Shown here: positions 214 to 10,301 of the stretch, in pieces
Layout: every line of letters begins with the position of its first letter
How positions within the stretch are numbered: the stretch's first letter is position 1
Origin: a virus
Taxonomy: Duplodnaviria > Heunggongvirae > Uroviricota > Caudoviricetes
DNA length: 10,301 bases
Strand: one strand, 5' to 3'
IMG/VR virus record: IMGVR_UViG_2531839668_000006
Program-made: the position numbers and the translations under genes
Notes under the pieces: generated by a model
Seen by the model: only the letters and a program-made list of their open reading frames with translations
Database searches by the model: none
Told to the model about the DNA's origin: nothing

Positions 214-621
214 TTATCGGATAATTTTTTTCATATATAGAAGCTGTAACTCATCTTCATCAAAAACGCTATAAGGTTCACAGTAATTCTTAAATTCCTC
301 ATAAGTTAAGAAATCGTGAATATCTTTAATTTCCTGAACCACACACACTGAAGTTGCAACAGATCTAAACCGAGCTGGACCTTGTCCATCTGAAGTACGA
401 TAAATAAGCAAATTATCTCCAGGCTTTAGGCTGGCTACCCCATGCATTTTTGTTAAGTATACTTTTTCAATACTGTTGGTATGTGATATATCAGCGATGA
501 TACCAGCACTCTCATTGTGGAGTTTTGACTCAGGGAAAAGACGTGTATGCCATGCAGGATAAATACTTAATAGATAATTTCTCCCCTGCAATTTGACTAA
601 GGGATAATTAGCATAGCTCAT
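214..621 (-). CDS. Hypothetical protein (135 aa), second gene of AT-rich cargo cassette; fold unassigned, weak PUA-like/ASCH-like beta-barrel impression
   Basis: ATG at 621..619 preceded by AAGGAG with about 7 nt spacing (reverse complement of 628..633). Visibly AT-rich compared with the phage core. Fold suggestion rests only on loose motifs (LQGR near N-terminus, LKPGDNLL loop). Confidence 0.5.
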   Translation of the reverse strand: MSYANYPLVKLQGRNYLLSIYPAWHTRLFPESKLHNESAGIIADISHTNSIEKVYLTKMHGVASLKPGDNLLIYRTSDGQGPARFRSVATSVCVVQEIKDIHDFLTYEEFKNYCEPYSVFDEDELQLLYMKKIIR

Positions 622-624
622 TTT

Positions 625-1095
625 TTACTCCTTCCATACCAAGTTTTTAAAGTATACACCTTCTTGCCCATTAATCGTAGAAAGATTTTTCCTCGCCTTT
701 AAAACAAAACCATATTTAGTTAATAAGCGAATTAATCCTGAATGCTTATCAAATATAGTAACATATACTTCTTTTAGTTTGTTTCTCATAGCAAATTGAA
801 ACATAATTCTAATAAAACGCTCTCCAAGTTTGGTTCCATGAGCATCGATTTTAAATGTGCCAAGCTTTACTCGCTTCATCTTTGGAAACGTTGGAGTCAT
901 ATCACTCAACTCTTCATCTTCTATTTTCAAATAGAGAAAACCATCGATTTCACCTAATTCATTACGTGATACAAACGCCTTATTTTTACCTTTTGAGAGA
1001 AACCAAACATCAAATCCTTCATAATCAGCTCTTAGGCTGTTAAAAAACGGATCTTTTAAATCGATATCACTAAAAAATTTTTCCTCGATAGACAT
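625..1095 (-). CDS. GNAT-fold (acetyltransferase-like) protein, 156 aa, first gene of AT-rich cargo cassette
   Basis: ATG at 1095..1093 with an upstream AGAGGAA Shine-Dalgarno-like sequence. C-terminal half has GNAT-like topology: VKLGTFKID, an HGTKLGER loop, then EVYVTIFDKHSGLIRLLTKYGF resembling GNAT motif B. Called from motif memory only. Confidence 0.5.
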   Translation of the reverse strand: MSIEEKFFSDIDLKDPFFNSLRADYEGFDVWFLSKGKNKAFVSRNELGEIDGFLYLKIEDEELSDMTPTFPKMKRVKLGTFKIDAHGTKLGERFIRIMFQFAMRNKLKEVYVTIFDKHSGLIRLLTKYGFVLKARKNLSTINGQEGVYFKNLVWKE

Positions 1096-1170: not shown

Positions 1171-1271
1171 TTACATACATTAAGCTCTATCAAACAACGA
1201 GCAAACTTAAGCACCGCTACAACTCAACCTAGCTGATGCCTGTTTTGACGATTACCCTATCAGCGCGCGCT

Positions 1272-1290
1272 CGTATCCCCGCCACGCCTG
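1272..1290. other. cos-like GC-rich core resembling the P2/186 cohesive-end sequence
   Basis: Reverse complement of 1272..1290 is GGCGTGGCGGGGATACGAG. As I recall them, the 19-nt cohesive ends are GGCGAGGCGGGGAAAGCAC (P2) and GGCGTGGCGGGGAAAGCAT (186), so the first 13 nt match the 186 form. Position (after the SOS operon and cargo) fits a P2-like prophage map. Recalled sequences are unverified. Confidence 0.4.
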
Positions 1291-1333
1291 CCCGCTTTAT
1301 GTAGTGGTTTTCATGCACCTGCATGATCTACGC

Positions 1334-1357
1334 AAAAGCCCGCCAGAACTGGCGGGC
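1334..1357 (-). terminator. Rho-independent terminator on the - strand, downstream of the lipoprotein gene
   Basis: GC-rich inverted repeat GCCCGCCAG (1338..1346) / CTGGCGGGC (1349..1357); the - strand transcript then reads UUUU (plus-strand AAAA at 1334..1337). Confidence 0.5.
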
Positions 1358-1461
1358 CTTAACACAAAAGATCCTCAAACGATCATGCGATCTCATGCAG
1401 CATAGACATGCGCGTTTATGCAGAATGTGCAAAATCGTAACATACTCAGCAAGCGTGAAAC

Positions 1462-2139
1462 CTAGAACGTGACAGCCTTGTCAAAGCCAGAAATAATTGT
1501 ATAAGAAATAGACGAGTTATCAGCCTTGTTCACTTTGAACTTGGCACCTTTGTAAGCGATAACGTCACTTCCCTTAGAATCTACAGAAAAATCTGTTGTA
1601 AATGCTGCACGAGCCATATCGTTTGCAAATTCACGATAGGTGAACTTCATTACACCGCCTGCATTTCCATTGTATTCGATAGTCTTAACCAATGAGTTAC
1701 TAACTCGACACAGCCCATCAGGAACACGTTTGATAGAAATTTCTGATGCAGTATAAGAAGTACCATTTGGCGGTGATATCTCATTTTTTGCAGCATCGTA
1801 ACTAACATAATCAACATAGTTACCGATTTGCCCATAGAGATTTTTTAACGCAACAGCTTGAGGGTTATGATAATTGCGGTAAATTCCATTCCCCTCACTG
1901 CAATATGTACCAGCAGCGATAGAAGACAATGCACCATTAGCCGCACCAAGTTCTAGTACGTCCGTTTTAAATCCAGTAGCAGATGTGATAATGGGATCGC
2001 CCATGTAGGCGGTAGCACTTTGCCCAATAGCAGGCTTCACCACTTCAATAGCAGTGATATTTCGGTTAGAAGCATGTGGCACGCAACCAGTTAGGATTAC
2101 AGCAAGAGATATTGGTAACGCTACATTATTAATTTTCAT
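1462..2139 (-). CDS. Predicted lipoprotein, 225 aa, unknown function (cargo between SOS operon and cos-like site)
   Basis: Internal ATG at 2139..2137 gives MKINNVALPISLAVILTGC, a typical lipoprotein signal peptide with lipobox LTGC. Mature part is Ser/Thr/Asn/Gly-rich. The longer ORF from 2193 would bury the signal peptide. Confidence 0.7.
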   Translation of the reverse strand: MKINNVALPISLAVILTGCVPHASNRNITAIEVVKPAIGQSATAYMGDPIITSATGFKTDVLELGAANGALSSIAAGTYCSEGNGIYRNYHNPQAVALKNLYGQIGNYVDYVSYDAAKNEISPPNGTSYTASEISIKRVPDGLCRVSNSLVKTIEYNGNAGGVMKFTYREFANDMARAAFTTDFSVDSKGSDVIAYKGAKFKVNKADNSSISYTIISGFDKAVTF

Positions 2140-2162
2140 TTTTAGCCTATTATTCTTTTCTT

Positions 2163-2197
2163 GACAAAAAACAAGGCGATATCTGATTGACATCGCC
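2163..2197 (-). terminator. Candidate Rho-independent terminator of the SOS operon (- strand)
   Basis: Stem GGCGAT (2175..2180) / ATCGCC (2192..2197), extendable by a wobble pair; the - strand RNA continues UUGUUUUUUGU (plus-strand A-run 2165..2173). Stem is short, loop about 11 nt. Confidence 0.4.
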
Positions 2198-2252
2198 TCT
2201 CACTCATATGTAACCCTTTTTGATTAGTAAAAACAAGCGTCTATTGACAAAA

Positions 2253-2486
2253 TCAATGCAGCCAGCTGTCGTCTTCCCACACCTTCTGCATAATTTTCAT
2301 CACTTGTTTTCTTTCTTCGTCCAGTTGCAGTCCGGTCAGTTCCACACCGTTAGAGCTACCTTTACGGATACGGATTACCGTTTTGGGATACAGGGGGCGC
2401 AGATTGCGGTAAAGCTCGGATTCAAGGGCGTCCAGGGTAGACTGGCTAATCTTCTGCTCTTTATCGATCATTATTTCAATGCGCAT
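2253..2486 (-). CDS. dinI: DinI-family protein (77 aa)
   Basis: From the internal ATG at 2486..2484 the product MRIEIMIDK...LDALESEL...ERKQVMKIMQKVWEDDSWLH aligns along its length with E. coli DinI as recalled (MRIEVTIAK...IDALAGEL...QETWESADDW). GAGGTG lies 6 nt upstream of the ATG. Confidence 0.85.
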   Translation of the reverse strand: MRIEIMIDKEQKISQSTLDALESELYRNLRPLYPKTVIRIRKGSSNGVELTGLQLDEERKQVMKIMQKVWEDDSWLH

Positions 2487-2496
2487 AAAAGTCACC

Positions 2497-2685
2497 TCAG
2501 TTGATGACATCCATTGAGCGGTTGTATTCGTGGCTTCTGATTTTTGCCATGAGTTCATCAGTCAATTCAGAAACCCACTGCAGAGCCAGCCCCTTCTCTT
2601 CATCACTACACTCACTAGCCGCTACAAGCTTAAGAAAAAAATCAATGCGCTGGAGCTTCAAAGACTCCAAAAAATAGTCCTGCAT
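2497..2685 (-). CDS. Small protein (62 aa), first gene of the LexA-controlled operon; positional analogue of the 186 Tum antirepressor
   Basis: ATG at 2685..2683 with a strong AGGAGG about 6 nt upstream (reverse complement of 2692..2697). Sits directly downstream of a LexA-box promoter and 10 nt upstream of the DinI-like gene. No family recognised from the sequence. Confidence 0.55.
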   Translation of the reverse strand: MQDYFLESLKLQRIDFFLKLVAASECSDEEKGLALQWVSELTDELMAKIRSHEYNRSMDVIN

Positions 2686-2726
2686 CTTTCCTCCTATGAC
2701 ACCACACGCAATACTGTATGCATAAC

Positions 2727-2769
2727 CACTGTTTATATTTACAGTATATAATAATCTTACTGATGTAAA
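2727..2769 (-). promoter_or_regulatory. SOS promoter with LexA operator (CTGT-N8-ACAG) overlapping the -10 element
   Basis: 2727..2746 reads caCTGTttatatttACAGta, matching the LexA box consensus TACTGT(AT)4ACAGTA. On the - strand a -35 TTTACA (2769..2764) and -10 TATACT (2748..2743) put the operator across the -10 and start site. A CTGT half-site also lies at 2714..2717. Confidence 0.7.
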
Positions 2770-2838
2770 ACGTTTTTTTACGCTTATCAGCCTGATATGC
2801 CTGGTATTATTAAGAGCACGAATTGTTAACCAGCGTAA

Positions 2839-5253
2839 TTAATACAGGTTCCGCCACTTATCATCTTCCTGCAAACGCTGGTTCCGATAGAAGATACGCA
2901 GGCCTGCTCCTGACGGAATACTGCCGCCGCGAAGGAGTAAATCGACCTCTTTCTCGCTGCCATCAAATCCTCTGGATTTCAGTTCATAGACGAGCTGCTG
3001 TCGTTGATGGTCTGTAATTCGCTGTTTGTAGTCTCTACGCCGTTTCGGTTTCACCAGACGTAACCTTGCAGCCAATTCCCGGCGCTCCTTTTTGTTCATA
3101 CTGTGCAGGTAATCGTGCAACACCTTGTCATCCATGCGGGTAATGTCCGTTCTGGGGTCCCCATCAGCTGATTTATCTTTCTCCTGTTGGTTCAAATTTT
3201 CAGCAAGGGGACAGTTATTGCCACGAGTCCAAGGGGCGCAAGCGCCCTGGTCGGCTGCCGCCTCCTGAACGTCAACGGCCTTACGAACCATTTTCCACTT
3301 CACGGCATGAGTGCAGATCTTGCCCTCTGCAATAGGTGACCAGATGCCATAAATACGAATGCCGTGATCGCCATAGGCGGTCGGCTCTTCGTTGATTTCA
3401 TAAGCAGTTCTGATGAGGTGATATTTGCGGGGAACCAGTACGCCACCCTGCTTCATGATGTAGGTGGCAAAACAACCAGCATCAGCAGCAGCCAGAATGG
3501 CATCAAGGCGCGGGTTATCCAGTACCGGCGCACCTGCTTTTTTGTCCCCCTGTTGCCTTGCCGCCTGACCAGCCAGCAATCGCAGTTCACGGTAAGCCTG
3601 ACGCCCCGGAATGCCAAAGAAGCGGAATTGCTGAACACGATGCAGAGACGCCCAGGCATTAACGTATTCAGCATTATCACGCAGGGATTTCCCCGTTTCC
3701 TTGCTGATCTCGCCAGCCAGACCACGCCCGTCAATGTTCTTACTGATGTATTTCGCGATGTAGCTTGTTGGCGTACCTTTGCGCGGGTTAATCAACTCAG
3801 ACTTAAAGCGCGGCCCAGTGTTATTGCCCAGCTCCTCGCGGTCTTCACGGATGGCAAACTTACGCAGTAATGCAGTGATGGTGCGGCGGTCTTTTTTGCG
3901 CATAAAACACAACAGGTGCCAGTGAACTGTACCGTCATGATGCGGCTCAGCCACCCGCACGCCATACCACCGCAATCCGGCTTTGTGCATCGCCTTACGA
4001 AATGCAGCAAACATGCCGACCAGATAATCACTGCTTTGTCTTACCGTCGCATTTGTCCAGGTTGGGTTGGGCCTGCCGTTATTTAGCGTGGAATGGAAAC
4101 GTGACGGACAGGTGATGGTGTAGAAAACGGCGCAGTCACCGCGCATTTCCGCGATAAGCTCCAGACCTTTAACACAGGCCATCATCTCATTGCGGCGATG
4201 CGCTGGGTTGCTGCTGCTGGCGTTTACCACATCCTCCATGTCCAGCGTGTCGCCGTCTTCGTTCACCAGTTCATGAGAACGGAAAAACTCCAGCGACTTA
4301 CGGCGCTGCTCACGTTTATGCATCACGGCTTCATAGCTGACATAAGGAGATGCTTTTTTGCTGACAAGGCAGACTGCACGCAACTGCTCTTCCCGCCATT
4401 CGCAACGCATCTTCCATAATTTCCGATACCACCAGTCGGCGCACAACATACGCGCCAGCGAACCCGGAATGAGTTCATAGGGCACGGGTTTACGGCGGTT
4501 TCTTTTCCGACGGAGTTGCTCAAACGCAGGCGGGATGACATCCAGACGCAGGGTTTCCGCTGCCACCCTTTCCCATGTATTGCGGATTTCTTCTGGCTTA
4601 ACGTCATCGGTGGCATACAAATCGCCACAAGCGGCATCAAGGCACATACTCATATGCGCAGCTACCAGGGTGGACAGGCGTTTCACCTGATCCTGACTCA
4701 TTTCAGGCAGGATCAGCAGGCCGTCCAGCCCTTCATGGCTTGCCATAAAGCGAAAAGATGCAGATAGCTGACTGTCGCGTACATGCTCCAGTCGTTCCAG
4801 ACATGGCTTAATCGTCTCACGTAAATAGCGGGAATAAGCCTTTGGCCTGCCCAGGCTGCTGAAGTATTCAATACGTTGCATCAGCGGCTTGCTGATATGG
4901 GAAGGCTGGGCGTTGACGTCCGCCAGAATGACCATATCCGGATTAAAACGCTGCTGCTCATGCGCCAGCTTTGCCCGACTAATGAGCTTATCCTGTTCCA
5001 TTTCGCGCTGGACAGGATCACGGGATTCATTAAAGAAATAACGCTCCCAGACCTGATCACTCAGCGCCTCACGGCGCAGCTGTTCCTGCTCGTTATCGGC
5101 AGCGTACAGAGTGATCAGGTTTGAAAGCGTAGAAACCGGCGCAACTTCCACCGGGTCCAGATAAGGGTTAATGGCCTTTTTCGGGCTGTTCCATGAGAAC
5201 GATGCGGCAGCTTCGTTAAAGCCGCAGCAGTTGTTCATATCGGCATGACTCAT
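2839..5253 (-). CDS. A: P2 gpA-type rolling-circle replication initiator (804 aa)
   Basis: Contains an HUH-type motif VHWHLL (codons at about 3916..3924) and paired active-site tyrosines SYIAKYISK (Tyr codons 3762..3760 and 3750..3748), as in phiX174/P2 gpA. Start ATG at 5253..5251 overlaps the Dam stop codon (ATGA). Confidence 0.9.
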
Positions 5254-6107
5254 GCACGTACTCCGTACACGGCAGAACTATCCACGCCACGCGAATAATC
5301 AAATCCCACCCAGCAGCGCGGCCCGGAAACAGCAATGATTTCTGTTGCTGATTTACCCTCGCCAGCTGCCACACCGATGCTGCGTTTTGCCTTGATGTAG
5401 TGGTGAGTAAAATTGCGATACAGCGAACGGATCAGGGATGTGTCACTGTTAGAAACAATGACCGGATGTCCTTCTGATGACCGATGTTCAAGAACAGATG
5501 CCAGGTGATACTGGTCATCTTCAGTGAAGCCGTCAGTGTGATAGCCGGAAAACGTACCGTCATACGGCGGATCGCAATACACCACATCCCCCGCCTTCAA
5601 CATCGCCAGCGTTTCATCAAAGCTGGCGCAGATAAACGTTGCTCGCTGGGCCTTTTCTGCAAATGCGCGAATTTCTTTTTCAGGGAAATACGGATTTTTA
5701 TAATTACCGTAGGGAATGTTGAAATGCCCGCTCTTGTTATAGCGACATAAACCACGGTAACCGTGACGATTGAGATACAGGAAATATACCGCTTTCATGA
5801 AATCAGTAATTTCAGTTGAGTAATTAAACTCCTGCCTTATGTTGTAATAAGCCACCTCCCTGTTTGCGATCTCAAATAAAACTCTGGCGCGAGATATAAA
5901 CGATTCACAATCAGCGGCAACCTTTTTATAGAGGTTGATTAAATCAGGATTAATATCCGCAACCAGATAGCTGGGATAATCCGTCTCCATCATCACAGCA
6001 CAGGAACCCGCGAAAGGTTCAACCAGTCGCGGGCCAGCAGGAAGATGTTTTTTCAGTTCGGACATTATGGCAGTTTTATTTCCCGCCCATTTCAGGATGG
6101 TGCTCAT
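5250..6107 (-). CDS. dam: DNA adenine methyltransferase, Dam/D12 class (285 aa from internal start)
   Basis: Motifs [18 protein letters not shown] (AdoMet binding) and DPPY (catalytic). Preferred start is the ATG at 6107..6105, preceded by GGAGGTG and overlapping the TraR-like stop (ATGA); the longer ORF from 6167 overlaps the upstream gene. Confidence 0.9.
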
Positions 6108-6331
6108 ACAGCACCTCCGTTGTAATGTTTGCCTTTCAGCTCTGCGATTTCCTGACAGGTAATGCAAAGCTGCACACCCGGAATGGCACGGCGGCGTGCT
6201 GGCGGAATTGGCGCTTCACACTCAATGCAAAGCACGCGGGACACGCCCGGCGTTTTGGCACGGGCAGCACGGATATGGCGTTGGCGTTCTTCTTCAACGC
6301 GCTGCTGTACGAGATCCATTGCATCAGCCAT
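6104..6331 (-). CDS. TraR/DksA-family C4 zinc-finger protein (75 aa)
   Basis: CIEC...(16 residues)...CITC zinc-finger spacing typical of phage TraR/DksA-like proteins. Start ATG at 6331..6329 overlaps the upstream stop (TAATG). Confidence 0.8.
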   Translation of the reverse strand: MADAMDLVQQRVEEERQRHIRAARAKTPGVSRVLCIECEAPIPPARRRAIPGVQLCITCQEIAELKGKHYNGGAV

Positions 6332-6564
6332 TAGTGGATCTCCTGCGCTTCGTTCTGGATTGCTTCAGCAGTCACACGAAGCAGTTCTGCCGCTTCGACG
6401 TGGGTTAGCTGGCGGGATGTGATATGACACGCCAGGCTATCAAGGCGAGCTGCCATTGCTTCAGCCCTTGCCCGGCGTTCTTCCAGACGAGCCTCTGTCA
6501 GTAAAATATTAAGCCCTGCGTCATCCGGTCCGGTTTTGGTCGAGAGGGTTTCAATATTACGCAT
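6331..6564 (-). CDS. Hypothetical early-operon protein (77 aa)
   Basis: ATG at 6564..6562 preceded by AGGAGA with 7 nt spacing; the ORF-track start at 6570 is a TTG. Acidic, Ala/Arg-rich and probably helical. Position matches the small orf80-83 block of P2-like phages. Confidence 0.55.
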   Translation of the reverse strand: MRNIETLSTKTGPDDAGLNILLTEARLEERRARAEAMAARLDSLACHITSRQLTHVEAAELLRVTAEAIQNEAQEIH

Positions 6565-6631
6565 AATCAATTCTCCTGAATTTAGATAAAGGGATGCCCG
6601 GCGGGTTTACGCCATTAATTTCATTGGTTGG

Positions 6632-6973
6632 TTAATTCGGCATGGTTAGCCGTCTGGGAAATAAGCTCACCACTGCACGAAAATGATTCATTGCTTTAAT
6701 CAACTCCCGCTTTTCGTCAGTGGTCAGCTCATTAATGCTGATGCTATGACGTTCAGCTGGAATTTTTGCCATAAAGAATATGGCAGCCAGTGCCCGTTTA
6801 TTTTGTTCGTTATTGATATCCCGTGGATCACGCATATCTTTAATAAACCGCTCAAGCTCTGACTCAATATTCAGGCCAAATACTTTCGCCCTTAATTCCG
6901 CAATGTGATTAAGTCCATTCAGGCGTTCTCCGGGGCTTAATGGAACAGTCGCCGCAGCGCCATTAATTGCCAT
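6632..6973 (-). CDS. Hypothetical early-operon protein (113 aa)
   Basis: ATG at 6973..6971 with a GGGGGA Shine-Dalgarno-like sequence 8 nt upstream; same orientation and tight spacing as neighbours. No family recognised. Confidence 0.6.
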   Translation of the reverse strand: MAINGAAATVPLSPGERLNGLNHIAELRAKVFGLNIESELERFIKDMRDPRDINNEQNKRALAAIFFMAKIPAERHSISINELTTDEKRELIKAMNHFRAVVSLFPRRLTMPN

Positions 6974-6995
6974 ACTTCATATCCCCCAAACGCAC

Positions 6996-7220
6996 CTATC
7001 GTTCTTTGTTCTTACGGTAACGCTCAAGGGGAGATACATTTTTTCGTACCGTCTCTTTAACCTGCTCTCCCCGTAAAAACGTCCCATCCTTTAGCGTGAA
7101 AAAGTAACTGCCATCGCCCGACAACGACGGATAACAACAGAGCAAATCATCTTCAGGTACTGAATAACTCTCCCCTCTGTAACAAAACTGATAAACCACT
7201 TCACTTTCCGCTGCATACAT
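6996..7220 (-). CDS. Hypothetical small protein (74 aa)
   Basis: ATG at 7220..7218 with an upstream GGAGA. Protein-like composition (MYAAESEVVYQFCYRGESYSVPEDD...). Overlaps the 3' part of the Fil-like frame. Confidence 0.45.
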   Translation of the reverse strand: MYAAESEVVYQFCYRGESYSVPEDDLLCCYPSLSGDGSYFFTLKDGTFLRGEQVKETVRKNVSPLERYRKNKER

Positions 7221-7387
7221 TTTGACTTTCTCCGTTTCCTCGTGGTCAATTCAGACAGCAATTCATCTTGTGAATGACATGGATGCCAGCGTTTTCCATC
7301 CTCACCCATGATCCAGCCGTGACCGTAGTGCATTGCCGGGCTTTGCTTTACCAGCAGCGATGCAAATGATGGTTCTTTCGTCAGCAT
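7091..7387 (-). CDS. Possible Fil-like early protein (frame open for 98 aa; 3' portion doubtful, possibly frameshifted)
   Basis: ATG at 7387..7385 lies 8 nt after the CII stop with GAGGTG upstream. N-terminal part (MLTKEPSFASLLVKQSPAMHYGHGWIMGEDGKRWHPC...) looks protein-like; the C-terminal 40 residues are Arg/Cys-rich and overlap the 74-aa ORF. Fil assignment is by position and vague recall. Confidence 0.3.
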   Translation of the reverse strand: MLTKEPSFASLLVKQSPAMHYGHGWIMGEDGKRWHPCHSQDELLSELTTRKRRKSKCMQRKVKWFISFVTEGRVIQYLKMICSVVIRRCRAMAVTFSR

Positions 7388-7394
7388 AAGCACC

Positions 7395-7904
7395 TCACAG
7401 CAAACCGAATGAAGCACCGAGTCCGGTCACGGTATCAACTGCACTCGCCATCGCAGGGTTAGCCTGTAAACGGGCCTGCAATGAAACAGCAGCCAACGCC
7501 ATCAGTCGTGTTACAGAGTTAATGCTGCTGATAGCATCACGACGACCTGCACTGGTTTTTACATCGCCAGATACCGCACCTGCAGCAACACGCCCGATCT
7601 CTGCGGTTGCACTCATGACGTAATGTGGCAGTTTCTCTTTTGCCACCTCATTAATCGGTACACATGGCAGACAATGAATCTGTGCCAGAAAACCATCTAC
7701 CAGCGTTGAATCTTCAGTCAGATCGGTAAGCAGCCAGATTTCTGGTGCGGTTAATAGATGAGGCTGAGCTGGGTTCAGCTTGTTCCGCAGAATCTGCACA
7801 TTCATGCCTGCACGTTCTGCCAGTTGCACCAGATTGTGGCGCAGTGCAAATGCACGACAGGCTTCATCAAAATGTGGATGTTTGGAAACTTGGTAATCAA
7901 ACAT
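7395..7904 (-). CDS. cII: 186 CII-like early regulator (169 aa)
   Basis: Second gene of the early operon, immediately after the Apl-like gene. Length from the ATG at 7904 matches the 169 aa of 186 CII as I recall it. The ORF-track start at 7910 is a TTG; AGAGG lies 8 nt upstream of the ATG. Confidence 0.7.
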
Positions 7905-7936
7905 GGTCAATGCCTCTGATGTATTTCAGAATCGAA

Positions 7937-8158
7937 CTAATTAAGGTTTAGATTGCATTCTGAAAGCGCATCAACGGTCATGGCTGCTATGTTGATCATC
8001 ACTTTTTCGCGTTTTTTATCTTTGCGCAAACGGTGACGGATAAGGCGTCCGTCAGCCAACATGTCATTGATGGTATCGATGGACAGCCCTGTCAGCTCGC
8101 TATAGCGCTCAATAGTCACATGAGGCGTGGTAAGAGTGATTGAAATGTTAGGTCTCAT
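7937..8158 (-). CDS. apl: Apl/Cox-like small HTH regulator/excisionase (73 aa)
   Basis: First gene of the leftward operon, divergent from cI. HTH-like segment [25 protein letters not shown] followed by a basic tail. Size and position match Apl (186) / Cox (P2). Confidence 0.65.
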
Positions 8159-8283
8159 GATGCAACATTCCTCGTTTAATGATGATTAATCAGGACGAAT
8201 ACGGATCGTTTGTACTTTGTGAACACCATAAACATACGATCGCAAAATGAAATCGTCAAGATAAAAGTTCACTTGGAGTGACC
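8159..8283. promoter_or_regulatory. Lysis-lysogeny switch region between apl and cI with candidate pR and operator-like inverted repeats
   Basis: Candidate - strand promoter: -35 TTGACG (reverse complement of 8254..8259), 17 bp, -10 TATGTT (reverse complement of 8231..8236). Inverted repeat GATCGTTTGT (8204..8213) / ACATACGATC (8232..8241), one mismatch, overlaps that -10. A second repeat TTAAT-N4-ATTAA lies at 8176..8189. No convincing rightward promoter for cI found. Confidence 0.45.
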
Positions 8284-8853
8284 ATGAATTTGGAGAAAGG
8301 CGGACGAGGCGCTATAGAGCGCATGGTAGAAGCTTATGGATTCAAAACTCGACAGGCGTTGTGCGATCATTTAGGAATCTCTAAAAGTACACTCGCCACA
8401 CGCTACATGCGTGACTCATTCCCAGCAGAATGGGTAATCCAGTGCGCCCTTGAAACGGGCACCTCGCTTAATTGGCTCACAACCGGACATGGTTCAAAGC
8501 AAACTTCAGGTAATACAAATACTATGGAAGTTGCTAAATATGTATTATCTGATGGTGCCTTGCGTGAAGACGGTTTTTATATTTTTGATAAGGGATTTCT
8601 ACCCTCTACGTTTAAAAAACCTTTTGTCATCACAGATAACAATTCTGAATTTATTTGTGATAAAGAATTTGATGATATACGTGATGGTAAATGGGTAATA
8701 AGTATTGATGGCGAAGTAACGATCCGTGACATTACTCGTTTACCCGGTGGAAGAATCTTCGTCGAGGGTGGAAACAGAGCCTTCGAATGTAAGATAGAAG
8801 ACATTGAAATAATTGGTAAAATTATAAGTTTAACAGTCAAGTATGTTAAATAG
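8284..8853 (+). CDS. cI: 186-type CI repressor (189 aa)
   Basis: N-terminal HTH region (AYGFKTRQALCDHLGISKSTLATRYMRDSFPAEWVIQCALETGTSLNWLTTG) matches the 186 CI-type repressor pattern as recalled. Length matches 186 CI (about 192 aa). GGAG lies 5 nt upstream of the ATG at 8284; the ORF-track start at 8278 is a GTG. Confidence 0.8.
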   Translation: MNLEKGGRGAIERMVEAYGFKTRQALCDHLGISKSTLATRYMRDSFPAEWVIQCALETGTSLNWLTTGHGSKQTSGNTNTMEVAKYVLSDGALREDGFYIFDKGFLPSTFKKPFVITDNNSEFICDKEFDDIRDGKWVISIDGEVTIRDITRLPGGRIFVEGGNRAFECKIEDIEIIGKIISLTVKYVK

Positions 8854-8868
8854 CACCGGGAGGAAACT

Positions 8869-9060
8869 ATGCTTGGTAAGGTATTTTTTGTGGTTTTGTC
8901 ATGTTCTTTGTTATTAAACCCACTAACTACCTATGCTAGAAATTATCCCTGCTCAGGGAAAAAGGGAGGTGTTTCTCACTGTACCTCAGATGGCAAATTC
9001 GTTTGCAATGATGGAACTATTAGTAAATCCAAAAAAATCTGTACTAAAAACTCACGATAA
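8869..9060 (+). CDS. Small secreted Cys-rich protein (63 aa) between cI and int
   Basis: Strong GGGAGG with 5 nt spacing before the ATG at 8869. N-terminal hydrophobic signal-like segment ([22 protein letters not shown]), then a Lys/Gly/Ser-rich region with four cysteines. AT-rich. Confidence 0.55.
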
Positions 9061-9195
9061 CTTTTGCTTTTATATCTGCGTCTAAAATAAAAATGAGCCG
9101 CAGGTTAACCGCAAAAGTTACATGCTCACATAGCAAAAAGAATAGCCAACTTCATTATGGCTTCAGTGAGATGTATGGTCGTAGGATTTCATACA

Positions 9196-9224
9196 TTGAC
9201 ACTGGTTATACATACAGTAAAAAT
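9196..9224 (+). promoter_or_regulatory. Candidate int-proximal sigma70 promoter (-35 TTGACA, -10 TAAAAA)
   Basis: Perfect TTGACA at 9196..9201, 16-17 bp spacer, then TAAAAA/AAAAAT at 9218..9224, about 25 nt upstream of the int ATG and its GGAGGG at 9235..9240. Confidence 0.3.
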
Positions 9225-9248
9225 GCTCTCTACTGGAGGGCATTTTTT

Positions 9249-10301
9249 ATGGCAGTACGAAAACTCACCACAGGGAAATGGCTTTGCGAATGTTACCCCG
9301 CCGGACGAAGTGGGCGTCGTGTGCGTAAACAATTCGCCACCAAAGGCGAAGCTCTGGCTTTTGAGCGTCACACTATGGAAGAAACCGAATCAAAGCCATG
9401 GCTGGGCGAATCAGTGGATCGTCGAACCCTGAAAGACGTGGTTGAGCTATGGTTCAAACTACATGGTAAATCTCTGACTGCTGGGCAGCATGTCTATGAC
9501 AAATTGCTGCTGATGGTTGACGCTCTGGGCAATCCTCTTGCAACCGATCTCACCTCTAAAATGTTTGCCCACTATCGAGATAAACGCCTGACAGGCGAGA
9601 TCTACTTCAGCGAGAAATGGAAGAAAGGAGCAAGCCCGGTCACCATTAACCTGGAGCAAAGCTATCTAAGTAGTGTTTTTAGCGAACTATCCCGTCTGGG
9701 CGAATGGTCGTATCCGAACCCACTGGAGAACATGCGAAAATTCACCATCGCAGAAAAAGAGATGGCATGGCTTACCCATGAGCAGATTGTTGAATTACTG
9801 GCTGATTGCAAACGTCAGGACCCAATTCTAGCACTGGTAGTTAAGATATGCTTAAGCACAGGCGCACGCTGGCGAGAAGCCGTAAATCTTACTCGTTCAC
9901 AGGTGACCAAATACCGAATTACCTTTGTAAGAACGAAGGGGAAGAAAAACAGAAGTATCCCTATCAGTAAAGAGCTTTACGAAGAGATCATGGCGCTTGA
10001 TGGGTTCAATTTCTTCACAGACTGCTATTTTCAATTTTTATCCGTGATGGAAAAAACGTCTATCGTGCTCCCTCGCGGTCAACTCACACACGTTCTGCGC
10101 CATACGTTTGCGGCGCACTTCATGATGTCGGGTGGAAACATTCTGGCCTTACAAAAAATTCTCGGACACCACGATATAAAAATGACTATGCGTTACGCAC
10201 ATCTGGCACCGGATCATCTGGAAACGGCGCTCCGTTTCAATCCTCTGGCAACGCTGCCAAGTGGCGACAAAGTGGCGGCAGCGGTTGGCATTACCCCGTA
10301 A
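9249..10301 (+). CDS. int: P2-family tyrosine integrase (350 aa from internal start)
   Basis: C-terminal catalytic region (CLSTGARWREA, RITFVRTKGKKNRSIPIS, HVLRHTFAAHFMMSGGNILALQKILGHHDIKMTMRYAHLAP) closely resembles P2 Int as recalled. The ATG at 9249 has GGAGGG 8 nt upstream and begins MAVRKLTTGKW, like P2 Int MAIKKLDDGRY. The ORF from 9093 is a probable over-extension. The TAA stop is the last codon of the window. Confidence 0.9.
   Translation: MAVRKLTTGKWLCECYPAGRSGRRVRKQFATKGEALAFERHTMEETESKPWLGESVDRRTLKDVVELWFKLHGKSLTAGQHVYDKLLLMVDALGNPLATDLTSKMFAHYRDKRLTGEIYFSEKWKKGASPVTINLEQSYLSSVFSELSRLGEWSYPNPLENMRKFTIAEKEMAWLTHEQIVELLADCKRQDPILALVVKICLSTGARWREAVNLTRSQVTKYRITFVRTKGKKNRSIPISKELYEEIMALDGFNFFTDCYFQFLSVMEKTSIVLPRGQLTHVLRHTFAAHFMMSGGNILALQKILGHHDIKMTMRYAHLAPDHLETALRFNPLATLPSGDKVAAAVGITP

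What the first reader, a model, noticed from the sequence alone, without database searches (positions are those of the whole stretch)
5250..6107. Phage-encoded Dam-class methyltransferase translationally coupled between the TraR-like gene and replication gene A
Motifs for a D12-class N6-adenine methylase are clear, and both its start and stop overlap neighbouring genes in ATGA junctions, so it is expressed with the replication initiator. Dam is not part of the canonical P2/186 early operon as I recall it, so this looks like an inserted gene. It could act in anti-restriction or in methylation-dependent control of replication or packaging; the GATC-rich tract near cos may be related.
Basis: partly seen in the sequence, partly recalled or inferred. 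Interest (0 to 1): 0.45.

Follow-up and report, generated by a model that had tools for sequence, protein, structure and literature searches.

The report
Known prophage Dam methylase gene
This is an intact, ordinary copy of the DNA adenine (Dam) methylase gene that Fels-2/186-like P2-family prophages carry just upstream of their replication gene; it is already annotated in about a quarter of complete E. coli genomes and is not new.

Summary
A 285-codon gene on the minus strand (ATG 6107, TGA 5252-5250) encodes a full-length D12/Dam-family N6-adenine methyltransferase. It is 47% identical to E. coli Dam, and the catalytic DPPY motif and the residues recalled as the GATC contacts are kept. Its start overlaps the stop of the TraR-like gene in ATGA, and its stop overlaps the start of replication gene A in ATGA.

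However, the gene is the normal occupant of this slot in the Fels-2/RE-2010 lineage:
- 68 of 78 related viral contigs carry it.
- dN/dS is about 0.15, so it is under purifying selection.
- Its divergence tracks that of gene A.

[quoted passage not shown] Its 90%-identity cluster includes a protein named after the retron-Ec67 Dam described in 1990.

The most likely role is full GATC methylation of replicating phage DNA during lytic growth, for anti-restriction or host mimicry. This role is inferred, not shown.

The GATC cluster beside cos is real, but its core pair persists in relatives that lack Dam, so no specific link is shown.

Verdict: already known, low interest.

The parts
5250..6107 (-). 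dam: 285-aa orphan Dam-family (D12 class, alpha group) N6-adenine DNA methyltransferase, predicted GATC-specific
   Evidence: Translation. PF02086 at E=1e-76, full length. TIGR00571 at 322 bits. 47% identity to E. coli Dam with DPPY and the recalled GATC-contact residues kept. Best PADLOC match is 'orphan methyltransferase'. dN/dS about 0.15.
6104..6107 (-). ATGA junction: the stop of the TraR-like gene overlaps the dam start
   Evidence: Read directly from the sequence. The same junction is found in most related loci.
5250..5253 (-). ATGA junction: the dam stop overlaps the start of replication gene A
   Evidence: Read directly. ATGA or GTGA at this junction recurs in relatives. The phage 186 record notes that translation to the end of the gene upstream of A appears necessary for translation of A.
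6114..6118 (-). Shine-Dalgarno GGAGG, 6 nt upstream of the dam ATG, inside the end of the TraR-like gene
   Evidence: Sequence context printed.
5261..5264 (-). Shine-Dalgarno GGAG, 7 nt upstream of the gpA ATG, inside the end of dam
   Evidence: Sequence context printed.
6104..6331 (-). TraR/DksA-type C4 zinc-finger gene (75 aa), immediately upstream. Its ATG overlaps the stop of the DUF2732 gene (TAATG).
   Evidence: PF01258 at E=3e-11. TIGR02419 at 65.8 bits. Junction read.
2839..5253 (-). Replication gene A (804 aa, rolling-circle initiator/nickase), immediately downstream
   Evidence: PF05840 Phage_GPA at E=7e-128. 30-34% identity to P2 and 186 A proteins.
8231..8259 (-). pR-like early lytic promoter (TTGACG, 17 nt, TATGTT) between the CI repressor gene and the apl/cox-like gene. 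It is the presumed source of the transcript that carries dam.
   Evidence: Consensus scan. Position is analogous to pR of 186. Function is inferred.

Best explanation
The gene encodes an active orphan Dam-family methyltransferase that methylates adenine in GATC. It is an accessory cassette of the replication module of Fels-2/RE-2010-type (186-like) P2-family prophages.

It sits in a chain of four genes with overlapping stop/start codons: DUF2732, TraR-like, dam and A. The chain lies downstream of the CI-repressed early lytic promoter. The enzyme should therefore be silent in the lysogen and made, together with the replication initiator gpA, once lytic growth starts.

Its most likely job is to keep the rapidly replicating phage DNA fully GATC-methylated when host Dam is limiting. 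Progeny DNA would then look like properly modified enterobacterial DNA. That would protect it from GATC-directed, methylation-sensitive restriction in the next host, and from MutH nicking and SeqA binding of hemimethylated DNA.

What is shown: gene identity, intact motifs, the junctions, conservation, and distribution.
What is inferred: GATC specificity (by homology), lytic-only expression (by operon position), and the physiological role (by analogy and by the kind of genes that share the slot).
For: Identity:
- Full-length PF02086 and TIGR00571 matches.
- 47% identity to E. coli Dam.
- These E. coli Dam positions are kept: K9, W10, K14, D54, R95, Y119, L122, R124, N126, N132, P134, Y138 and DPPY. 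Their roles as contact residues are recalled from the Dam-DNA structure paper, not checked here.
- These motifs are invariant in 67 distinct relatives, and median dN/dS is 0.15.

Orphan status: the neighbours are TraR-like and gpA, with no endonuclease. The best PADLOC model is 'orphan methyltransferase'.

Expression:
- Stop/start overlaps are TAATG, ATGA and ATGA.
- Both dam and gpA have a Shine-Dalgarno sequence.
- No minus-strand promoter-like site lies between pR (8259-8231) and dam.
- The 186 record documents coupling of A translation to the upstream gene.

Role: in relatives the same slot also holds other DNA-modification or DNA-processing genes. These are a C5 cytosine methylase, queuine-tRNA-ribosyltransferase-like proteins, PAPS-reductase-domain proteins and an RNase_T exonuclease. 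A cytosine methylase is also annotated next to A in Salmonella phage SI7.

Prior knowledge: the same gene order and sizes (228/858/2415 bp) are tabulated for a K. pneumoniae Fels-2-like prophage in PMC7826664. That paper cites Hsu et al. 1990 for a Dam methylase in the retron-Ec67 prophage. A member of this protein's 90% cluster carries that name.
Against: - No experiment on this exact protein was found in the papers searched. Specificity and activity rest on homology.
- Motif I reads F-A-G-S-C rather than FxGxG. E. coli N120 and R137 are R and N here. Five residues after DPPY are missing. These changes are invariant in the family, so they are probably tolerated, but altered kinetics or specificity cannot be excluded.
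- The usual hosts already have Dam, so the benefit of a second Dam is not obvious.
- GATC is neither enriched nor depleted in the window (35 observed, about 37 expected).
- Ten of 78 close relatives do without the gene, so it is dispensable.
- Weak terminator-like hairpins lie upstream on the minus strand (7130-7111 and 6246-6234), so read-through from pR is assumed, not shown.
Confidence: 0.85

Rival explanations
1. Methylation-gated packaging, as at the phage P1 pac site. The phage Dam would methylate the GATC cluster next to cos, and terminase would cut or bind efficiently only when these sites are methylated.
For: Four GATC sites lie 37-120 bp inside the right cohesive end (1325-1392 versus cos 1270-1288). 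They are embedded in repeated GCATGA motifs. The pair GCATGATC...GGATCG, spaced 11 nt start to start, is nearly invariant across about 75 related loci while the spacer varies. P2 and 186, which lack Dam, have no GATC there. The cluster is denser than in 96.5% of shuffles.
Against: The conserved pair is also present in 8 relatives of the same clade that have an empty slot (L065, L067, L069, L072, L075, L076 and L078 with 2 sites; L077 with 1), and in L068, L071 and L079, which also lack Dam. The sites therefore do not depend on a phage Dam. The two additional sites are variable among Dam-positive loci. The GATCs may simply be part of the clade's version of the terminase-binding repeats. No data on methylation dependence exist.
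Confidence: 0.06
2. Regulatory role. Phage Dam would change the methylation state of GATC sites in phage or host control regions to time replication, the lysis-lysogeny switch or host gene expression.
For: One GATC sits in the spacer just upstream of the -10 of the pR-like promoter (8238) and another lies about 30 nt downstream (8204). Two GATCs (3316, 3366) lie about 85-150 bp from the ori nick region predicted inside gene A (about 3210-3230).
Against: These counts are what chance gives at about 1 GATC per 290 bp. The immunity region is mosaic and is not linked to Dam. Host Dam would already methylate these sites in the lysogen. There is no GATC at the predicted nick site itself.
Confidence: 0.07
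3. A decaying or selfish passenger with no function for the phage.
For: The gene is dispensable: 10 of 78 relatives lack it. One relative has a truncated copy (L038) and one has the ATG changed to TTG (L046). GC content (0.47) is lower than in the flanking TraR-like (0.57) and A (0.53) genes.
Against: Median dN/dS is 0.15 over 1959 pairs. All catalytic and DNA-contact motifs are invariant in 67 distinct sequences. Divergence tracks that of gene A (rho 0.91). The reading frame is intact in this window.
Confidence: 0.02

Closest known systems
Dam of Fels-2 / RE-2010 (ELPhiS) / Klebsiella phage 4LV2017 / Escherichia phage Cartapus (Peduoviridae, Felsduovirus and relatives). The retron-Ec67 prophage Dam (Hsu, Inouye & Inouye 1990) belongs to the same group.
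   Same: The gene is 97-99% identical in nucleotide sequence. The order TraR-like, dam, A and the 858-bp length are the same. It is annotated 'DNA adenine methylase' or 'DNA methyltransferase'. The exact protein is in a 4038-member cluster that includes a protein named 'retron EC67 DNA adenine methylase'.
   Different: Nothing of substance. This copy differs by a few substitutions. Direct comparison with the original Ec67 sequence could not be made; the link rests on a transferred name and on my recollection that the Ec67 Dam is 285 residues long and about 44% identical to E. coli Dam.
E. coli chromosomal Dam (PDB 2g1p, 4gol)
   Same: Same fold family and same motif order. Identity is 47% over 258 aligned positions. 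DPPY and the residues I recall as contacting GATC (K9, Y119, L122, R124, P134) are kept.
   Different: It scores below the cut-off of the host-Dam equivalog model NF008152 (288 versus 441 bits). Residue changes are G39C, N120R and R137N, plus a 5-residue deletion after DPPY. There is a 22-residue C-terminal tail that evolves faster than the core (dN/dS 0.33 versus 0.13). It is phage-borne and sits in a repressed lytic operon rather than being a housekeeping gene.
Phage P1 Dam (Dmt) and the P1 pac site (from established knowledge)
   Same: A temperate-phage Dam together with a cluster of GATC sites beside the packaging site.
   Different: P1 uses headful packaging from pac, and cleavage there is known to need methylation. 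Here the site is a P2-type cos and no dependence is known. The core GATC pair persists in relatives without a phage Dam.
Phage 186 genes CP82-CP84 and P2 orf83, the occupants of the same slot
   Same: Same position between the TraR-like gene and A. The junctions overlap. The 186 record notes translational coupling into A.
   Different: The proteins are unrelated: an RNase_T exonuclease, DUF5405 and a PAPS-reductase-domain protein. No methylase is present.

Membership tests
D12-class / Dam family N6-adenine DNA methyltransferase (PF02086, TIGR00571) | Full-length match to the family profiles above the curated cut-offs | tested here: met
   PF02086 scores 258.5 bits (cut-off 22) over profile positions 1-253 of 253. 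TIGR00571 scores 321.9 bits (cut-off 114.85).
D12-class / Dam family N6-adenine DNA methyltransferase (PF02086, TIGR00571) | Catalytic motif IV, DPPY | tested here: met
   D179-P-P-Y182 aligns with E. coli D181-Y184. It is invariant in 67 relatives.
D12-class / Dam family N6-adenine DNA methyltransferase (PF02086, TIGR00571) | AdoMet-binding motif I, FxGxG | tested here: inconclusive
   The motif reads F32-A-G34-S-C36, so the last Gly is Cys. EPFAGSC is invariant in all 67 relatives under purifying selection, so it is probably a tolerated family variant. AdoMet binding was not tested.
D12-class / Dam family N6-adenine DNA methyltransferase (PF02086, TIGR00571) | GATC-recognition residues of E. 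coli Dam (K9, Y119, L122, R124, P134; residue roles recalled from the Dam-DNA crystal structure literature) | tested here: met
   All five are conserved by alignment, as are R95, N126, N132 and Y138. N120 is R and R137 is N.
D12-class / Dam family N6-adenine DNA methyltransferase (PF02086, TIGR00571) | Methylation of adenine in GATC | not testable with these tools
   This needs expression in a dam-negative host followed by DpnI/MboI digestion or methylome sequencing.
Host-type chromosomal Dam (NCBIfam equivalog NF008152) | Score at or above the equivalog cut-off | tested here: not met
   288.1 bits against a cut-off of 441. It is a Dam-family paralogue of phage origin, not the housekeeping orthologue.
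Orphan (solitary) methyltransferase | No cognate restriction endonuclease gene adjacent | tested here: met
   The neighbours are the TraR-like gene and gpA. No nuclease family was found among the window ORFs scanned. The best PADLOC model is oMTase PDLC03729 at E=3e-111.
Fels-2/RE-2010-type early lytic operon of 186-like Peduoviridae | Gene order CI / apl, cII, fil, DUF5347, DUF2732, TraR-like, dam, A, DinI/Tum-like | tested here: met
   Pfam assignments. The same order is annotated in RE-2010. The region is 95-98% identical in nucleotide sequence to Fels-2-like phages over window 1260-10301.
P1-type methylation-dependent packaging site | Cluster of GATC sites in the packaging site whose methylation is required for cleavage | tested here: inconclusive
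   A cluster is present next to cos. Its core is kept in relatives without a phage Dam. Whether methylation is required cannot be tested here.

The most novel reading that the evidence does not exclude
In Fels-2-type P2-family phages, the conserved pair of GATC sites one helical turn apart in the right arm of cos could act as a methylation checkpoint for terminase, as at P1 pac. The phage Dam, made together with the replication initiator, would ensure that freshly replicated genomes become competent for packaging. More broadly, the slot just upstream of gene A would be a dedicated place for DNA-modification genes whose dose is tied to replication.
Probability: 0.06. Interest if true: 0.4.

Novelty: already known. 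Interest (0 to 1): 0.08.

Why it matters
It matters little as a discovery. The gene is a common, already annotated accessory gene of a well-known prophage lineage. It is useful as a correct annotation: a second Dam gene that should be silent in lysogens and switched on at induction. It is also a reminder that methylome or dam-mutant studies in E. coli, Salmonella and Klebsiella may be confounded by prophage-borne Dam copies. The one observation that goes slightly beyond the record is that the slot between the TraR-like gene and gene A collects DNA-modification genes in relatives (Dam, a C5 methylase, TGT-like and PAPS-reductase-like proteins). That fits an anti-restriction role and could guide mining for phage DNA-modification genes.

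Tried and rejected
1. Link between the phage Dam and the GATC cluster at cos. I extracted the 150 bp inside the cohesive end from P2, 186, RE-2010 and 80 viral contigs. The core GATC pair is present whether or not Dam is present, so no specific association can be claimed.

2. GATC enrichment or avoidance in the window. None was found: 35 observed against about 37 in shuffles.

3. GATC at the replication origin. The P2 and 186 nick sites were mapped onto the window's gene A at about 3210-3230. There is no GATC at the nick, and the nearest sites are 85-150 bp away.

4. Degenerate or inactive enzyme. Rejected on motif conservation and dN/dS.

5. Literature on experimental work on this Dam. Searches for STM2730, ELPhiS, Fels-2 plus Dam, retron Ec67, and orphan phage methyltransferases found only annotations and secondary citations. 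The 1990 PNAS paper is not held. A search for the Dam-DNA structure paper by residue names returned nothing relevant.

6. Rfam scan of the whole window for structured RNAs. No match at gathering thresholds.

7. Structure prediction was not run. With 47% identity to a solved Dam it would add nothing.
Full report
**What is in the sequence.** The finding's coordinates delimit a minus-strand gene. ATG is at 6107-6105 and TGA at 5252-5250, giving 285 codons plus the stop. The mechanical ORF list extends it to a TTG at 6167, but the ATG at 6107 is preceded by GGAGG with a 6-nt spacer.

The upstream 75-codon gene (6104-6331) is a TraR/DksA-type zinc finger (PF01258, TIGR02419). Its TGA lies inside the dam ATGA. 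The downstream 804-codon gene (2839-5253) is replication gene A (PF05840, E=7e-128). Its ATG overlaps the dam TGA in a second ATGA and is preceded by GGAG.

One gene further up, the DUF2732 gene ends in TAATG with the TraR-like start. Four genes are therefore chained by overlapping stop/start codons.

**Identity of the protein.** It matches the D12-class model PF02086 end to end (E=1e-76) and TIGR00571 'dam' at 322 bits against a cut-off of 115. It aligns with the solved E. coli Dam at E=2e-73 over residues 4-263. A pairwise alignment gives 47% identity.

- Kept: DPPY and E. coli positions K9, W10, K14, D54, R95, Y119, L122, R124, N126, N132, P134 and Y138. Their roles in AdoMet and GATC contacts are taken from my knowledge of the Dam-DNA structure, not from a tool.
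- Different: G39C in motif I (F-A-G-S-C), N120R, R137N, a five-residue deletion after DPPY, and a 22-residue C-terminal tail.
- It falls below the cut-off of the host-Dam equivalog model (288 versus 441 bits). It is therefore a phage-type paralogue, not the housekeeping gene.
- No endonuclease gene is nearby, and the best PADLOC model is 'orphan methyltransferase'.

**Context.** The window is a 186-like member of the P2 family (Peduoviridae) in prophage order. The features, right to left, are:
- integrase (9093 onward, plus strand);
- 186-type CI repressor (8278-8853, plus strand);
- a pR-like promoter (8259-8231);
- on the minus strand: an apl/cox-like gene, cII (PF06892), fil (PF10893), DUF5347, DUF2732, TraR-like, dam and A;
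- a perfect LexA box (2729-2744);
- a DinI/Tum-like gene (2253-2558);
- a 243-codon ORF;
- the cohesive-end site.

Window 1260-10301 is 95-98% identical to Klebsiella phages 4LV2017 and KP12, Salmonella phage RE-2010, Fels-2 and Escherichia phage Cartapus. In these, the dam homologue is annotated as a DNA adenine methylase between a zinc-finger gene and the replication gene.

**Is it foreign to the P2/186 operon?** Yes. P2 has TraR-like orf82, then orf83 (DUF5405), then A. 186 has the TraR-like gene, then an RNase_T exonuclease, DUF5405 and a PAPS-reductase-domain gene, then A. A paper on P2-like Burkholderia phages also states that P2 encodes no methylase (PMC3091744).

To measure how variable the slot is, I fetched 80 viral contigs whose gene A product is 78-99% identical to this one. 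I then classified what lies between the TraR-like gene and A. Among 78 complete slots:

| Slot content | Number |
|---|---|
| Dam alone | 41 |
| DUF3850/ASCH + Dam | 11 |
| Dam + queuine-tRNA-ribosyltransferase-like protein (phrog_887) | 7 |
| DUF3850 + Dam + phrog_887 protein | 1 |
| Dam + PAPS-reductase-domain protein | 5 |
| Exonuclease + Dam | 1 |
| Dam + C5 cytosine methylase | 1 |
| Dam with an IS1 insertion upstream | 1 |
| Empty (19-35 nt between TraR-like gene and A) | 8 |
| DUF3850 only | 1 |
| PAPS-reductase-domain protein only | 1 |

Dam is therefore present in 68 of 78 slots. The slot is a hot spot for accessory genes that act on DNA.

In the Dam-less loci the first 10-20 codons of A also differ. 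The mosaic boundary therefore lies just inside A.

Dam has lower GC (0.47) than the TraR-like gene (0.57) and A (0.53). Even so, its divergence tracks that of A (Spearman 0.91, n=67; the sequences are not independent). It is an old resident of this lineage's replication module, not a recent arrival in this prophage.

**Is it functional?** Across 67 distinct homologous genes, median pairwise dN/dS is 0.15 (maximum 0.35). The segments KWAG-K, EPFAGSC, RGLCRYN, YG-YK and DPPY are invariant. The C-terminal tail is less constrained (0.33 versus 0.13 for the core). One relative has a truncated copy and one has ATG changed to TTG, so occasional decay occurs. The 4-nt overlaps (ATGA or GTGA) are kept at both junctions in most loci.

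**How it most likely works.** Between pR and dam the scan finds no minus-strand promoter-like site, only two weak hairpins. The gene is therefore most simply read as part of the CI-repressed early lytic transcript.

The enzyme would then appear exactly when rolling-circle replication produces large amounts of new DNA. It would keep that DNA fully GATC-methylated. The benefit is inferred, and could be any of:
- protection from GATC-directed, methylation-sensitive restriction;
- avoidance of MutH nicking;
- avoidance of SeqA binding.

The company the gene keeps in the slot fits a DNA-protection role: a cytosine methylase, TGT-like proteins of the kind linked (from my knowledge) to deazaguanine DNA modification, and PAPS-reductase-like proteins. 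This is association only.

**The GATC tract near cos.** By alignment with the P2 cosR feature and the right end of the 186 record, the cohesive-end core is window 1288-1270 on the minus strand (GGCGTGGCGGGGATACGAG). Records of related phages also end there.

GATC sites at 1325, 1370, 1381 and 1389 lie 37-120 bp inside the right end. They flank a terminator-like hairpin and are embedded in GCATGA repeats. The cluster is moderately unusual: 70 of 2000 shuffles reach it.

Across the related loci the pair GCATGATC...GGATCG is almost invariant, including most Dam-less loci. P2 and 186 have no GATC there. The sites therefore belong to this clade's cos arm, whether or not a phage Dam is present. A P1-like methylation requirement is possible but unsupported. 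Overall GATC frequency in the window is as expected.

**What is already known.** The exact protein is in the public collection as 'DNA adenine methylase [Escherichia coli]'. It represents a 90%-identity cluster of 4038 sequences, one of them named 'retron EC67 DNA adenine methylase'.

The gene is found at 90% identity or more in 1239 of 5426 complete E. coli genomes. In the records listed it is flanked by 'TraR/DksA family transcriptional regulator' and 'replication endonuclease'.

PMC7826664 tabulates the same 228/858/2415-bp trio in a Fels-2-like prophage of K. pneumoniae. It cites Hsu, Inouye and Inouye (PNAS 1990) for a Dam methylase in the 34-kb element that carries retron Ec67. It also cites Dodd and Egan (1996), who showed that element to be a 186-related prophage. 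I could not read the 1990 paper. My recollection that it reports a 285-residue ORF about 44% identical to E. coli Dam is unverified, although it agrees with the numbers here.

About 57 of the 383 phage records with a gene A homologue belong to this gene A clade (80% identity or more), and 56 phage records hold this dam gene at DNA level.

**Verdict.** The feature is a known, widely annotated accessory gene. Its physiological role remains formally untested, which is true of most phage orphan Dam genes. Interest is low.

Noticed in passing
window 1270-1392: A P2-type cos site: the cohesive-end core GGCGTGGCGGGGATACGAG is at 1288-1270 on the minus strand. Four GATC sites (1325, 1370, 1381, 1389) and a terminator-like hairpin (about 1338-1360) lie in its right arm. 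The pair GCATGATC...GGATCG, 11 nt apart, is nearly invariant in about 75 related loci, including ones without Dam. It is absent from P2 and 186.
   Followed up: yes
window 214-1095 (minus strand): Two adjacent low-GC (33-34%) ORFs lie left of cos and are absent from the related phages. Both match the PADLOC candidate defence protein PDC-M11A: 625-1095 matches profile positions 11-160 and 214-621 matches positions 166-296 of 357. They are in the same frame, separated by one in-frame stop (625-627) and one codon. This looks like a single gene that is split or carries a nonsense mutation. It sits in the cos-proximal spot where retrons Ec67 and Ec86 are inserted in 186-related prophages (PMC6868368).
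   Followed up: partly
window 2729-2744 and 2253-2558: A perfect LexA-box consensus (CTGTTTATATTTACAG) lies in the gap between gene A and a DinI-family gene (PF06183, 101 codons). This is the arrangement of the SOS-controlled tum antirepressor operon of phage 186.
   Followed up: partly
window 1462-2193 (minus strand): A 243-codon ORF between the DinI-like gene and cos has a lipoprotein-like N-terminus (LTGC). It has no Pfam or PADLOC match and only a sub-threshold NCBIfam hit. It is conserved in related phages as 'hypothetical protein'.
   Followed up: no
loci L010, L024, L031, L043, L062, L074, L082, L051 (slot between the TraR-like gene and gene A): In relatives the same slot additionally or alternatively carries DUF3850/ASCH, PAPS-reductase-domain proteins, 250-276-aa proteins matching phrog_887 (queuine tRNA-ribosyltransferase-like), an RNase_T exonuclease, a C5 cytosine methylase, and an IS1 insertion. 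The slot is a hot spot for genes that act on DNA.
   Followed up: partly
loci L046 (5327) and L038 (6536-7003): There are signs of occasional decay of the dam gene in relatives. L046 has the start codon changed from ATG to TTG. L038 retains only residues 129-284.
   Followed up: no
window 8204 and 8238: Two GATC sites lie in the immunity switch region. One is in the spacer immediately upstream of the -10 hexamer of the pR-like promoter (gcGATCgTATGTT). No evidence of methylation control was found.
   Followed up: no
window 6996-7417 (minus strand): The fil homologue (PF10893, ORF 7091-7417 as listed, with a GTG start) overlaps a 74-codon ORF (6996-7220) in another frame. The real starts and the coding status of the second ORF were not resolved.
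   Followed up: no
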